From: Escherichia coli
GTDB taxonomy: Bacteria > Pseudomonadota > Gammaproteobacteria > Enterobacterales > Enterobacteriaceae
Length of the DNA: 64,000 bases
Assembly: GCF_036507355.1 (NCBI RefSeq)
Contig: NZ_AP027877.1
Reading direction: 5' to 3' (one strand)
Shown here: positions 54,765 to 57,917 of the stretch, in pieces
Numbering within the stretch: the stretch's first letter is position 1
Layout: every line of letters starts with the position of its first letter
Notes under the pieces: generated by a model
Told to the model about the DNA's origin: nothing
Database searches by the model: none
Seen by the model: the letters and a program-made list of their open reading frames with translations, nothing else
Program-made: the position numbers and the translations under genes

Positions 54765-55091
54765 TTATTTGCGCAACCATTTACCATTAATTCCCTGAAC
54801 ATATTGCCCCGACTTCGCGCGAGCAACAAGCTTTTGTCCAGCCAGTTTGGCTATCTCTTTAGTGGATACATTATTTTGCTTTGCCAGTTGTTGGTAACTA
54901 TGGTTACGAGCTTCATTAATATCTTTTACTAATGCCTGTGTTTCGGCATCCGTTTGTAGCGCCACCAGGTAACCGTTAAGCGTTTCACCTACCCGCCCCT
55001 GACTTCTGGCTTCGTTCAGGGTTAAAGCCATTGCACTGTCGCTCATCAGGCCAATGGCCCATACAGCTATGAGTAATGTTCTTTTCATCAT
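54765..55091 (-). CDS. ydbL: periplasmic protein (DUF1318)
   Basis: ORF 54765-55169; ATG at 55091 (MMKRTLLIAVWAIGLMSDSAMA...) gives about 108 aa with signal peptide. Confidence 0.75.
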   Translation of the reverse strand: MMKRTLLIAVWAIGLMSDSAMALTLNEARSQGRVGETLNGYLVALQTDAETQALVKDINEARNHSYQQLAKQNNVSTKEIAKLAGQKLVARAKSGQYVQGINGKWLRK

Positions 55092-55095
55092 CACC

Positions 55096-55281
55096 TCAAA
55101 ATAGATCGCTACGGGTTTTGAGCAGGTCTTCAACGTCCTTATCCGCTTTAATGATGATTTCATGCTCAATTTTAACGTTCATATTAATGGTGATTGGCTC
55201 TTTCGGCGCAGCCACTTCAATGCGAGGCGTGCAACCAACCAACATAAAAGAGGACGCAAACGCGGCTATCACTATTTTCAT
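55096..55281 (-). CDS. ynbE: small lipoprotein
   Basis: 61-aa ORF with lipobox MLVGC. Confidence 0.75.
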   Translation of the reverse strand: MKIVIAAFASSFMLVGCTPRIEVAAPKEPITINMNVKIEHEIIIKADKDVEDLLKTRSDLF

Positions 55282-57917
55282 TGTTTTTCCTCACACTCTT
55301 TTCCTGATGGGCAGCCAGTTTCCGGTAGCTGGGCATTCTGCTCCAGCCATACCTGGAGATTATCGCCAAAGCGTAAACTGCGCCATAACGTAAAAATATT
55401 CTCTTCATGGTGATAATTAAGGTTTACCGTACCGCTTTTACCATCGACGCGACTGGTGCCCGAAATGTTGGCCTGCATGGTTAACACACCGAGATTATCT
55501 AAATTAATCCTTGTTGATGAGCGACTGATTTCCATATAACGCAACCAGTTGATGGCAGTTCCAGCGGTCATATTGTCTTTGGCCACCGCATCTGCAGTGT
55601 CTTTATCCAGACGCAGCGTCATCGGCCCCGCGTTTGCCAACCAGCCATCTTTGACAATCCATTTTTCATTGTTCAGCCATAGTGGCAAGGCCCCACTGAA
55701 TGCCCCAGACATGGCGAATTGTTTCGGATTGACGGCGCTAACCAGTTCGCTGGATGAGAGATTATTCAGCCGCAACAGCGCCGGGTCATGTTGCGGCATA
55801 CGTAATTGTTTCATCAGCACGTTACCGCCTAACACATCGACGCTAACATCAGTCAACAGCAATGGTTCTTCTTCAGTCCACGGATAACGCCCTTGCAAAT
55901 CAGCCGTAATATTTTTCGCTGTCACCAGATTAATCACTTCGGCAATTCGCAACGTAACGGGGCCGCGAGTCCCAAGATGCCAGGCTCCATCGGCAAAACG
56001 GAAAGGCAGGACAAAATCGACACCGTTAACCTGATTATCTGGCATCCAGGCACTACCGCCTTTCAACACGCCGTGCCCTCCCGCGCGGAATCCTTGTTCA
56101 GGCGCAGCAGAAAATGCAACCTGAGCATACAGTTCACCATCGCGTAAGTTCATCTTCCAGTCGGGTGGCACCAGCGGCTGGAATACAGTCAGTGATTGTT
56201 TAGGCCACCAGGCGTTACCGCGCAGACGAATACCGTCCCAGCGACCATTTACCCGAACCGGGCCAATCTCACCAGCATGTAAATCGCCTTTAAAGAGGAA
56301 ATACGTCGGATCGCGCCCATCGACGCTAAATTTTAAGGTTGATGGCGGTAACACACTGCCGCCAGTGAACAGCGTTTGCCCGGCGTCCAGTGACAGCGCG
56401 CCGCTGAAGGAGGGATGCTGTGCGTCACGTACCCAGACGACGGGCTTGTCGAGAATTAATCGCGGCTTTTCTACCGTCATCGTACCGTATTGTAGCTGGT
56501 CGAAACCGGTGGAGAGATCGGTCAGCGTAATCGTGCTGTCATGCCACTCACCTTTTCCTGCGACATCCCAGGTGGCATTCATCGGTGTAAAACTCCCTTT
56601 TCCCCAGTAGCGCCACTGCCAGCGGCCAGCGTCAGGGAGAAAATCATTCGCCAGCCCATCCATATGCAGCACGAAATCGCCCAGTTCATTTTCATGCGCC
56701 TGCAAAATGGCCTGCAAACGTCCGTCAACACCACGTTGGGTGACTTTTACACCCGCTAAAGGCCAGCGGATTTCATCGATGTCCAGCGAATCGATGACTC
56801 TTCCCTTTGAACGAAGTAACGCGCCTGGCTCAAAGGTCAGCGTTGGGTCAGACAGACTTCCACTTACCTGCGCAGGTAAACGGGCATATAAAATGAGGTC
56901 CGCCTGTTTCGCTTCACCGGTCAGCTGCAGAGGCAGCTGGCTGTTATCCATGCTTAATTTTCCTGGGCCAAAATTAAGCACCGCGTTGCCCTTACCCGCT
57001 TGCCCCTGGGTCAGCACACTCAGTCGTCCGCTGACCAGAGCGTTCTCAAGCCCTGCCTGCCAGTTGTCGACTTTGACACCCAGTCGGCCACTCAAAGGAA
57101 AACCTGCATACGGCCAGCTCCAGCGACCATCGCTTACGGTCAATTGTTGACGCGTAATTTGCCACGGCAAATCGAGCAACGGATCGCCGTTATCCCGTGC
57201 CAGCACGATCAATTGCCCGCTATTTTCCTGCCAGTCCAGCTCTGCATCCACCAGTGACGGTTCCTGCGGCAAGTTTAACGTCGCAGTAGCATGCCCACTT
57301 ACAGGAAGTCCATCCGGCACGAGCGGCATAGTAAATTCCCCCACCAGTTTAACCGGCGGCTGATTTTCAAACGCGACGACATCCAGCTCGCTGACTGTAA
57401 GTTGTTGCCCTTTCAGCTGGCCTTGAAATTTAACTTTTTCGCCCTGATAACGCAGTTGCTGGATATCAGAGGTTAATGCGAGAGAGAGTTTTCCCTGCCA
57501 TTCCTGCCAGGGAGAAAAAATCAGTTTATCGATATTGATCCAGGTGTTAGGCAGCATGGACTGCCACTGCGCGAGGGTTTTTGGAGCAGCTGGCGATTGC
57601 TCCGTCTGCGGCAATTTCGCCAGACAAGCAGAATCAAGTTCTACCGTGCCGACGTTCAATAACCAGCGGCTGGGATGTGAAAGGCTGGCGTTGGTGATAT
57701 GCGCAAGCTGACAATCTCCCACCAGATAACGGAGATCGGGAATGATTAAACCTTTACGCGTAATGCGTGGGCTTTCATCTAATGCAATACGTGTCCCGAG
57801 CGGTAGCCAGATGCCCGCCAGCGTGGGAACCCACAGCCCGAGCGTCATCAGCAGCGTCAACGGCACAAGAATAATCAGTAATAACAGCGCGAGAACGGCT
57901 TTATATTTACCCAGCAT
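55278..57917 (-). CDS. ydbH: AsmA-like large envelope protein
   Basis: 879-aa ORF with N-terminal TM anchor MLGKYKAVLALLLLIILVPLTLLM...; 4-nt overlap with ynbE. Confidence 0.85.
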   Translation of the reverse strand: MLGKYKAVLALLLLIILVPLTLLMTLGLWVPTLAGIWLPLGTRIALDESPRITRKGLIIPDLRYLVGDCQLAHITNASLSHPSRWLLNVGTVELDSACLAKLPQTEQSPAAPKTLAQWQSMLPNTWINIDKLIFSPWQEWQGKLSLALTSDIQQLRYQGEKVKFQGQLKGQQLTVSELDVVAFENQPPVKLVGEFTMPLVPDGLPVSGHATATLNLPQEPSLVDAELDWQENSGQLIVLARDNGDPLLDLPWQITRQQLTVSDGRWSWPYAGFPLSGRLGVKVDNWQAGLENALVSGRLSVLTQGQAGKGNAVLNFGPGKLSMDNSQLPLQLTGEAKQADLILYARLPAQVSGSLSDPTLTFEPGALLRSKGRVIDSLDIDEIRWPLAGVKVTQRGVDGRLQAILQAHENELGDFVLHMDGLANDFLPDAGRWQWRYWGKGSFTPMNATWDVAGKGEWHDSTITLTDLSTGFDQLQYGTMTVEKPRLILDKPVVWVRDAQHPSFSGALSLDAGQTLFTGGSVLPPSTLKFSVDGRDPTYFLFKGDLHAGEIGPVRVNGRWDGIRLRGNAWWPKQSLTVFQPLVPPDWKMNLRDGELYAQVAFSAAPEQGFRAGGHGVLKGGSAWMPDNQVNGVDFVLPFRFADGAWHLGTRGPVTLRIAEVINLVTAKNITADLQGRYPWTEEEPLLLTDVSVDVLGGNVLMKQLRMPQHDPALLRLNNLSSSELVSAVNPKQFAMSGAFSGALPLWLNNEKWIVKDGWLANAGPMTLRLDKDTADAVAKDNMTAGTAINWLRYMEISRSSTRINLDNLGVLTMQANISGTSRVDGKSGTVNLNYHHEENIFTLWRSLRFGDNLQVWLEQNAQLPETGCPSGKECEEKQ

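What the first reader, a model, noticed from the sequence alone, without database searches (positions are those of the whole stretch)
54765..57917. ydbH-ynbE-ydbL: AsmA-like envelope protein with two small periplasmic/lipoprotein partners
An 879-aa N-terminally anchored AsmA-like protein is translationally coupled (4-nt overlap) to a 61-aa lipoprotein and followed by a small periplasmic protein. This three-gene module is of the type implicated in lipid transport between membranes. The right IS1 and an AT-rich spacer lie just downstream of ydbL, so the IS1 event may have altered its 3' context.
Basis: partly seen in the sequence, partly recalled or inferred. Interest (0 to 1): 0.35.

Follow-up and report, generated by a model that had tools for sequence, protein, structure and literature searches.

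The report
Known YdbH-YnbE-YdbL envelope lipid bridge
This is an intact copy of the well-studied E. coli ydbH-ynbE-ydbL operon, which builds one of three redundant protein bridges thought to carry phospholipids from the inner to the outer membrane; it is ordinary, and the nearby IS1 element has not touched it.

Summary
On the minus strand lie ydbH (55278-57917, 879 aa), ynbE (55096-55281, 61 aa, ATGA overlap with the ydbH stop) and ydbL (54765-55088, 107 aa). All three are intact. They match the curated families (YdbH-like PF11739, E=2.5e-292; YnbE-like PF13617; DUF1318/YdbL PF07027), and YdbH is 98% identical to K-12 YdbH.

The system is already characterised. YdbH, TamB and YhdP are redundant but jointly essential (mBio 2021). 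YdbH and the outer-membrane lipoprotein YnbE form an inner-to-outer-membrane bridge, and YdbL restrains YnbE multimerisation (PNAS 2024; bioRxiv 2026; PDB 28oj).

The IS1 conjecture does not hold for the operon. IS1 (53480-54247) sits 517 bp beyond the ydbL stop, inside the next gene, a ydbA/bigA-type autotransporter. Everything from 54248 to 60200 is collinear (99.5%, no gaps) with an IS1-free E. coli.

One thing is mildly unusual. The last ~490 nt of ydbH, plus ynbE and ydbL, are a minority allele (about 7% of complete E. coli genomes) only 76-90% identical to K-12 at the DNA level. Every functionally mapped residue is kept or carries a tolerated change.

I could not score similarity to AsmA-like structural models directly, because the AFDB libraries were unavailable and PDB hits were non-specific. 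Novelty: already known. Interest: low.

The parts
55278..57917 (-). ydbH: 879-aa inner-membrane-anchored AsmA-like (repeating beta-groove) protein
   Evidence: ORF. PF11739 YdbH-like E=2.5e-292 over residues 14-863. NCBIfam NF007971 equivalog 1400.7 bits. 16 aa differences from K-12 YdbH, 12 of them in the last 117 residues. AF2 model pLDDT 87.2: N-terminal helices, about 54 beta-strands, C-terminal helix. The gain-of-function positions T303, G305, G308 and G456 carry the wild-type residue.
55096..55281 (-). ynbE: 61-aa outer-membrane lipoprotein that extends the YdbH groove; its ATG overlaps the ydbH stop (ATGA)
   Evidence: ORF. PF13617 E=1.7e-16. Lipobox LVGC17 with Thr at +2. The beta-strand I30-I38 is identical to K-12. 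The only mature-protein changes are E52D and E55K in the C-terminal helix (residue roles).
54765..55088 (-). ydbL: 107-aa periplasmic DUF1318 protein, chaperone-like modulator of YnbE multimerisation
   Evidence: PF07027 E=1.1e-30. The mature part matches solved K-12 YdbL (PDB 28oj_A) at E=1.2e-38. Start fixed at the second ATG by comparison with K-12 and PGAP. 15 of 16 mutagenised residues are identical; the exception, E60A, is tolerated in K-12.
57918..58124 (.). ydbH-ldhA divergent intergenic region (presumed operon promoter)
   Evidence: 207 bp, 100% identical to K-12. The promoter itself was not mapped here.
54358..54764 (.). Context: AT-rich 407-bp native spacer between ydbL and the next gene (ydbA/bigA-type autotransporter)
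   Evidence: GC about 0.30. Collinear with IS1-free E. coli OkiPb01695. Best sigma-70-like match on the minus strand at 54551-54524, facing the autotransporter start. No terminator-like fold just after ydbL.
54248..54357 (-). Context: 110-nt 5' remnant (signal peptide MQRKKLLSVCVAMALSSQTWA...) of the ydbA/bigA-type autotransporter, cut by IS1
   Evidence: The intact gene in relatives encodes 1961 aa with BigA_N, BigA_3rd, BigA_4th and BigA_beta domains.
53480..54247 (+). Context: right IS1 (768 bp, insA/insB open), no target-site duplication
   Evidence: It takes the place of 2,745 bp of the autotransporter gene relative to OkiPb01695.
51247..53479 (-). Context: internal, still-open fragment of the autotransporter gene between the two IS1 copies
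   Evidence: 98.3% identical to OkiPb01695. BigA_beta domain E=4.1e-24.
50479..51246 (-). Context: left IS1, inverted relative to the right copy, 1 mismatch between the copies
   Evidence: It takes the place of 3,020 bp relative to OkiPb01695: the autotransporter barrel part, pdxI and the 5' part of ydbD.

Best explanation
This is a functional orthologue of the E. coli ydbH-ynbE-ydbL operon.

Proposed mechanism:
- YdbH is held in the inner membrane by an N-terminal helix. It extends a long, curved, one-sided-hydrophobic beta-sheet groove into the periplasm.
- YnbE is lipidated at Cys17 and sorted to the outer membrane. It adds its beta-strand (I30-I38) to the last strand of YdbH, extending the groove and tethering it to the outer membrane.
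- YdbL is periplasmic. It binds the C-terminal helix of YnbE and keeps YnbE from runaway amyloid-like multimerisation.
- The resulting bridge is one of three redundant routes (with TamB-TamA and YhdP) proposed to let phospholipids diffuse between the membranes.

Shown here: gene integrity, family membership, anchor and signal features, conservation of functionally mapped residues, predicted architecture, and an untouched local context.

Shown in the literature for K-12: redundancy and essentiality, YdbH-YnbE cross-links, YnbE multimerisation, and YdbL-YnbE binding.

Still inferred, in the field as well: that phospholipids actually travel along the groove, and in which direction.
For: Identity:
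- Pfam and NCBIfam full-length matches.
- 863 of 879 YdbH residues are identical to K-12, and 43 of 45 mature YnbE residues.
- Mature YdbL is 79% identical to K-12 and matches PDB 28oj_A at E=1.2e-38.
- Synteny ldhA-ydbH-ynbE-ydbL as in K-12.

Functional residues:
- The YnbE strand I30-I38 and Cys17 are intact.
- YdbL L24, R28, E35, Y40, N58, R61, Y65, L68, N72, I79, K86, L87, R90, W104 and K107 are identical. E60 is Ala, a change shown to be tolerated.
- The YdbH suppressor positions carry wild-type residues.

Architecture:
- AF2 pLDDT 87.2, N-terminal helix followed by about 54 strands.
- Residues within strands alternate hydrophobic and polar more than shuffled strands do (2.42 vs 1.57, z=5.2).

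Module conservation: homologues at 26-33% identity keep an overlapping ynbE-like gene, with overlaps of 4, 4 and 17 nt.

Mechanism from papers: PMC8593681, PMC11126948, bioRxiv 10.64898/2026.03.16.712125 and PMC12447247.

Context: window 54248-60200 is collinear with an IS1-free strain at 99.5% with no gaps.
Against: - Nothing here measures expression or function in this strain.
- The 3' third of the module is a divergent allele. Against K-12, ydbL is 75.8% identical at the DNA level, ynbE 81.7% and the last 400 nt of ydbH 87.5%. Equivalence to the K-12 proteins is therefore inferred from conserved key residues, not shown.
- hhalign of the YdbH profile against single TamB and YhdP sequences was not significant.
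- The papers themselves say biochemical proof of lipid transport is lacking.
Confidence: 0.95

Rival explanations
1. The IS1 event changed how the operon is expressed, for example by removing its terminator or 3' UTR, or by sending transcription out of IS1 antisense into ydbL. That would shift the YdbL:YnbE ratio, which is known to matter.
For: The right IS1 reads towards the 3' end of ydbL (insA/insB on the + strand). No intrinsic terminator is apparent right after ydbL, so the transcript end could lie further downstream. Excess YdbL is toxic when cells depend on YdbH-YnbE. In another E. coli (LP5-1) an IS1 sits immediately after ynbE and ydbL is gone, so IS1 can remodel this operon.
Against: In this window 517 bp downstream of ydbL are native and gap-free relative to an IS1-free strain. 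IS1 lies inside the next gene, not in the operon. No outward promoter was identified. The promoter scan found no more sites than shuffled sequence gives.
Confidence: 0.04
2. The divergent 3' cassette (YdbH C-terminus, YnbE and YdbL) is a co-adapted variant whose parts work together but not with K-12-type partners. On this reading the allele difference is functional, not neutral.
For: The divergent tract covers exactly the parts that touch each other: 12 of the 16 YdbH changes fall in the last 117 residues, YnbE helix changes E52D and E55K lie in the YdbL-binding segment, and YdbL has 29 changes. The alleles are bimodal in E. coli: 374 genomes at >=99% identity to the window, 4,894 at 60-80%.
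Against: The residues shown to be needed for binding or function are all conserved, and E60A is tolerated. The charges do not compensate: YdbL goes from +3 to +6 while the YnbE peptide goes from -5 to -3. Synonymous differences are plentiful: 30 of 59 differing codons in ydbL, 26 of 32 in ynbE and 35 of 47 in ydbH codons 717-879. Divergence continues leftwards into the spacer and the autotransporter gene. Both patterns fit an old recombined haplotype next to a hypervariable surface-protein locus.
Confidence: 0.1
3. YdbH is a dicarboxylate-transport protein, the legacy database name, and not a lipid-bridge component.
For: Several source databases still name homologues 'Dicarboxylate transport'.
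Against: There is a single N-terminal hydrophobic segment and an otherwise all-beta periplasmic body, which is not a polytopic transporter. Genetics and cross-linking place it in outer-membrane lipid homeostasis. Pfam now describes the family as an intermembrane phospholipid transport protein.
Confidence: 0.01

Closest known systems
E. coli K-12 YdbH-YnbE-YdbL (b1381-b1383)
   Same: Same three genes, order and neighbour (ldhA). Same 4-nt ydbH/ynbE overlap and 7-nt ynbE/ydbL gap. YdbH 98% identical. YnbE beta-strand identical. All required YdbL residues conserved.
   Different: The last ~490 nt of ydbH, plus ynbE and ydbL, are a different allele: 87.5% (last 400 nt of ydbH), 81.7% and 75.8% DNA identity. 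YdbL lacks the final Phe108. K-12 has about 19 kb (feaR through paaY, then ynbG) between ydbL and ydbA. Here the ydbA/bigA-type gene follows directly and is broken by IS1.
Pseudomonas aeruginosa YdbH-YnbE (PA5307-PA5306)
   Same: Adjacent ydbH and ynbE. YnbE is needed for YdbH function when TamB and YhdP are absent.
   Different: A distant orthologue. That paper does not mention ydbL (0 occurrences). Two of the three distant loci I looked at also lack a DUF1318 gene.
TamB-TamA (TAM) and YhdP
   Same: Inner-membrane-anchored AsmA-like proteins with a long beta-groove, functionally redundant with YdbH in outer-membrane lipid homeostasis.
   Different: They are much longer: 1259 and 1266 aa. TamB docks on an Omp85 barrel (TamA), and YhdP is thought to reach the outer membrane on its own. 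YdbH is too short and uses a lipoprotein that extends the sheet. No significant direct sequence match to YdbH was seen in my profile comparisons.
Lpt bridge; eukaryotic VPS13/ATG2 repeating beta-groove proteins
   Same: The same principle: a continuous hydrophobic groove spanning an aqueous gap between two membranes.
   Different: Different cargo or compartment. Lpt is ATP-driven and built from several small beta-jellyroll proteins. No energy source is known for YdbH.

Membership tests
YdbH family (Pfam PF11739; NCBIfam NF007971 equivalog) | Full-length match above the curated cut-offs | tested here: met
   973.4 bits against a cut-off of 26.3, profile positions 1-893 of 893. 1400.7 bits against a cut-off of 824.
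AsmA-like / repeating beta-groove superfamily | Single N-terminal transmembrane helix anchoring the protein in the inner membrane | tested here: met
   All Kyte-Doolittle 19-residue windows above 1.6 start at residues 1-22. AF2 helices at 2-24 and 26-37. Actual localisation was not measured.
AsmA-like / repeating beta-groove superfamily | Long periplasmic body made almost entirely of beta-strands with one hydrophobic face (groove) | tested here: met
   About 54 strands covering 537 of 879 residues, pLDDT 87.2. Within-strand hydrophobic/polar alternation z=5.2 against shuffles.
AsmA-like / repeating beta-groove superfamily | Detectable structural or profile similarity to reference members (TamB, YhdP, AsmA) | tested here: inconclusive
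AsmA-like / repeating beta-groove superfamily | Chorein-N-like region after the anchor | not tested
   Stated for K-12 YdbH in the literature. No chorein-N model scored here.
YnbE-like lipoprotein (PF13617) | Lipobox with invariant Cys, an outer-membrane sorting residue at +2, and a family match | tested here: met
   LVGC17, Thr18 at +2, PF13617 at 60.1 bits against a cut-off of 25.8.
YnbE-like lipoprotein (PF13617) | Amphipathic beta-strand I30-I38 used for strand augmentation, and the C-terminal helix that binds YdbL | tested here: met
   The strand is identical to K-12. The helix K45-T56 is present with E52D and E55K. Binding itself was not tested.
YdbL / DUF1318 (PF07027) | Sec signal peptide, a family match, and conservation of the residues required for function | tested here: met
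   106.4 bits against a cut-off of 27. AMA|LTL cleavage motif. PDB 28oj_A at E=1.2e-38. 15 of 16 tested residues identical, with the tolerated E60A.
ydbH-ynbE-ydbL operon | Gene order with overlapping or closely spaced reading frames, and co-transcription | tested here: met
   4-nt overlap and 7-nt gap as in K-12. The overlap is conserved in distant homologues. Co-transcription is not testable with these tools.

The most novel reading that the evidence does not exclude
The YdbH C-terminus, YnbE and YdbL, the three parts that contact each other, are exchanged in E. coli as one divergent cassette. There are at least four YdbL allele classes. The window carries a roughly 7% minority type that is closer to E. 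ruysiae and E. albertii than to K-12. The cassettes could be co-adapted, so that mixing partners from different alleles impairs bridge assembly.
Probability: 0.1. Interest if true: 0.35.

Novelty: already known. Interest (0 to 1): 0.1.

Why it matters
The operon matters in general, because phospholipid delivery to the outer membrane is a long-standing problem and a possible drug target. This copy adds nothing new to that question. It is an intact orthologue of a system described genetically, biochemically and, for YdbL, structurally.

Three points are useful here:
- The IS1 pair damaged the neighbouring autotransporter locus, not the operon.
- There is natural sequence variation at the YdbH-YnbE-YdbL contact region, which could serve as ready-made material for structure-function work.
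- A natural E. coli exists in which IS1 has removed ydbL altogether.

Tried and rejected
- **Sequence search of YdbH against the PDB:** no match.
- **hhalign of the YdbH-family profile against single K-12 TamB and YhdP sequences:** not significant. Pfam scans of TamB and YhdP at E<=10 gave no YdbH-like hit.
- **Terminator after ydbL:** none found by the consensus scan, and the fold z-score was 0.29.
- **Rfam on 50000-64000:** nothing in or next to the operon; the only hit was MicC, far to the right.
- **Source strain via the IS1 junction:** the junction is absent from all loci fetched up to then. The junction-spanning 43-aa product is not on record. No complete E. coli genome covers more than 84% of 53300-58200 in one place. 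The source remains unidentified.
- **Idea that the K-12-type ydbL allele is tied to the fea/paa island:** rejected. Strain 04-00955 has the K-12-type allele with a very large gene directly downstream and no feaR (annotated 'EntS/YbdA MFS transporter' in the record; I did not check what it is).
- **Idea that the K-12 allele came from Citrobacter:** rejected. K-12 mature YdbL is 72-78% identical to Citrobacter against 79-83% to Escherichia alleles.
- **Charge compensation between the YnbE helix and YdbL:** not seen.
- **The spacer itself:** small ORFs and repeats in it are unremarkable.
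Full report
**1. The observation**

The ORF table shows three consecutive minus-strand frames:
- 55278-57917 (879 aa)
- 55096-55281 (61 aa)
- a frame ending at 54765

The first two share four bases. On the coding strand the sequence is GAGGAAAAACAATGAAAATA, so the ynbE ATG overlaps the ydbH TGA, with a GAGG eight bases upstream of the ATG.

The third frame can be opened from a TTG at 55169, but that start would lie inside ynbE. The coding strand after the ynbE stop reads TGAGGTGATGATGAAAAGA. K-12 has the same ATGATG, and the K-12 annotation uses the second ATG, 7 nt after the ynbE stop. PGAP uses the same start for the identical allele in other genomes. ydbL is therefore 54765-55088, 107 aa.

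**2. Identity**

- Pfam: YdbH-like PF11739 (E=2.5e-292, whole profile), YnbE-like lipoprotein PF13617 (E=1.7e-16), and DUF1318 PF07027 (E=1.1e-30).
- NCBIfam: the YdbH equivalog scores 1400.7 bits against a cut-off of 824.
- Against K-12 MG1655: YdbH differs at 16 of 879 residues, and YnbE at 6 of 61, four of them in the signal peptide. Mature YdbL is 79% identical.
- The mature YdbL sequence matches the solved K-12 structure in the PDB (28oj_A, 'Probable chaperone-like protein YdbL') at E=1.2e-38.
- The neighbours to the right (ldhA, hslJ, ydbJ, ydbK/nifJ, MicC) are those of the E. coli chromosome.

**3. Sequence features behind the mechanism**

*YdbH*
- Its only strongly hydrophobic segment is at the N-terminus (19-residue windows starting at residues 1-22).
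- I built an alignment of 42 homologues spanning 24-87% identity and predicted the structure. Mean pLDDT is 87.2 and pTM 0.67.
- The model has helices at 2-24 and 26-37, then about 54 beta-strands covering 537 residues, a helix at 841-862 and a disordered tail.
- Within strands, hydrophobic and polar residues alternate more than in shuffled strands (2.42 vs 1.57, z=5.2). This is what a sheet with one apolar face would show.

*YnbE*
- It has a lipobox LVGC17 with Thr at +2. By the standard +2 rule (established knowledge, not tested here) that means outer-membrane sorting.
- The strand I30-I38, which the PNAS 2024 paper shows to be needed for YdbH binding and multimerisation, is identical to K-12.

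*YdbL*
- It has an A-M-A|L signal-peptide cleavage motif.
- Of the 16 residues mutagenised in the 2026 preprint, 15 are identical. The sixteenth, E60, is Ala here, and E60A had no detectable defect in K-12.

*YdbH suppressor positions*
- T303, G305, G308 and G456 carry the wild-type residues.

**4. What is known**

- The tamB yhdP ydbH triple deletion is synthetic lethal, and ydbH-locus plasmids or ydbH point mutants suppress tamB yhdP defects (PMC8593681).
- YdbH cross-links to YnbE in vivo. YnbE multimerises. Proline kinks in its strand abolish function. YdbL limits multimerisation and is toxic in excess (PMC11126948).
- YdbL binds the C-terminal helix of YnbE, and its crystal structure is solved (bioRxiv 10.64898/2026.03.16.712125).
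- The YnbE dependence holds in P. aeruginosa (PMC12447247).
- The authors state that biochemical evidence for transport is still lacking. So 'lipid bridge' is the best-supported model, not a demonstrated activity.

**5. Conservation of the module**

Three distant YdbH homologues (26-33% identity) are each followed by an overlapping PF13617-type lipoprotein gene, with overlaps of 4, 4 and 17 nt. Two of these loci have no DUF1318 gene. The third contig ends right after ynbE. This fits the published finding that YnbE is required and YdbL is only modulatory.

**6. The IS1 question**

The two IS1 copies are 53480-54247 (+) and 50479-51246 (-). They differ at one base, and neither has a target-site duplication.

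Against E. coli OkiPb01695, which has no IS1 here, the window aligns in three blocks:
- 54248-60200 at 99.5% with no gaps
- 51247-53479 at 98.3%
- 50001-50478 at 99.2%

The right IS1 therefore stands in place of 2,745 bp inside the gene downstream of ydbL. The left IS1 stands in place of 3,020 bp: the barrel part of that gene, pdxI and the 5' part of ydbD.

The downstream gene is a ydbA/bigA-type autotransporter, 1961 aa when intact, with BigA domains. Its first 110 nt survive at 54248-54357.

The 407-bp AT-rich spacer (54358-54764) is the native ydbL-autotransporter intergenic region. IS1 lies 517 bp beyond the ydbL stop. The event destroyed the neighbour and left the operon and its proximal 3' flank untouched.

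I found no terminator-like structure immediately after ydbL. A distal effect on the transcript end cannot be excluded, but nothing supports one.

No complete E. coli genome among 5,426 shares this IS1 arrangement.

For contrast, in E. coli LP5-1 an IS1 sits directly after ynbE and ydbL is missing.

**7. A divergent 3' allele**

Relative to K-12, DNA identity is about 99% from 55767 rightwards. Leftwards, in 200-nt bins, it falls to 90, 88, 83.5 and 77%. By gene:
- last 400 nt of ydbH: 87.5%
- ynbE: 81.7%
- ydbL: 75.8%

Homology to K-12 ends at the ydbL stop, where K-12 has about 19 kb carrying feaR through paaY.

Among complete E. coli genomes the ynbE-ydbL segment is bimodal: 374 at >=99% (O157:H7, O55:H7 and others), 146 at 80-90%, and 4,894 at 60-80%.

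At the protein level, mature YdbL from the window is:
- 92-93% identical to E. ruysiae and 'multispecies Escherichia' forms
- 88% to E. albertii
- 85% to E. marmotae
- 79% to K-12

At least four allele classes exist in E. coli.

Divergence continues into the spacer, which has no blastn match upstream of K-12 ydbA, and into the autotransporter fragment, which is 85% identical.

The K-12-type allele also occurs without the fea/paa island, so the polymorphism is not simply linked to that island.

Many differing codons are synonymous: 30 of 59 in ydbL, 26 of 32 in ynbE and 35 of 47 in ydbH codons 717-879. Functional residues are kept. I read this as an old recombined haplotype next to a hypervariable surface-protein locus. 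The alternative, a co-adapted interaction cassette, is not excluded, but it gets no support from charge patterns.

**8. Limits of the structural test**

The model has the expected architecture, but I could not score it against AsmA-like references:
- afdb50 was not installed.
- Foldseek against the PDB gave ApoB100 and LptD at TM below 0.2.
- Profile comparison with single TamB and YhdP sequences was not significant.
- The only cross-family sequence signal is sub-threshold DUF748 hits in 19 of 42 family members, best E=7.2e-5.

Superfamily membership therefore rests on orthology to K-12 YdbH and on the cited papers, not on an independent test here.

**9. Verdict**

The IS1 side conjecture is not supported for the operon itself. 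The system is already known. Interest is low.

Noticed in passing
window 54767-55766 (ydbL, ynbE, last ~490 nt of ydbH): Deep allelic polymorphism. Against K-12, ydbL is 75.8% identical at the DNA level, ynbE 81.7%, and the last 400 nt of ydbH 87.5%, while the flank to the right is about 99%. Only 374 of 5,414 complete E. coli genomes carry the window type. Its YdbL is closer to E. ruysiae and E. albertii than to K-12, and at least four YdbL allele classes exist in E. coli.
   Followed up: partly
window 50479-54247: Two nearly identical IS1 copies in inverted orientation bracket a still-open 2,233-bp internal fragment of a ydbA/bigA-type autotransporter gene. Neither has a target-site duplication. 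Relative to E. coli OkiPb01695, 2,745 bp and 3,020 bp are missing at the two IS1 sites (most of the autotransporter, pdxI, and the 5' part of ydbD). No complete E. coli genome shares the arrangement.
   Followed up: partly
window 54764/54765 boundary, compared with L002 and L015 (K-12): The roughly 19-kb feaR-feaB-tynA-paaZ...paaY-ynbG segment that K-12 carries between ydbL and ydbA is absent here, as in O157:H7-type genomes. Homology to K-12 stops exactly at the ydbL stop codon.
   Followed up: partly
L016 (E. coli LP5-1, NZ_CP101866.1) 2701-3703: A natural E. coli in which an IS1 sits about 120 bp after ynbE and ydbL is missing altogether, with ydbD truncated on the other side. It is a ready-made ydbL-null strain, and it shows this locus is an IS1 hotspot.
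   Followed up: no
L011 1677-2501 and L012 178-990: In two distant ydbH loci (26-30% identity, one from the chromosome record CP006954.1), a 270-274-aa PF27206 (HI_1241) gene directly abuts the start of ydbH and no DUF1318/ydbL gene is present. This could be a different accessory partner.
   Followed up: no
window 26000-50600: The best complete E. coli genomes are only 98.4-98.6% identical over this 24.6 kb (hrpA, aldA, trg, opgD, ynbA-D region). The source lineage therefore has no close relative among 5,426 complete E. coli genomes. Proteins from Shigella dysenteriae, S. sonnei and S. boydii fall in the same 90%-identity cluster as the window's YdbL. The source was not identified.
   Followed up: partly
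window 63729-63849 (-), 34817-34968 (+), 35528-35591 (+): Rfam matches above gathering score: MicC sRNA next to ydbK/nifJ, a sok antitoxin RNA, and RydC sRNA.
   Followed up: no
window 54640-54775 (-): No intrinsic-terminator-like structure follows ydbL (fold z-score 0.29, no minus-strand terminator hit). The best sigma-70-like match in the spacer (54551-54524, minus strand, 10 of 12) faces the autotransporter start.
   Followed up: partly
database names for YdbH homologues: Several source databases still label YdbH-family proteins 'Dicarboxylate transport'. The protein's one-helix, all-beta architecture does not support that legacy name.
   Followed up: no
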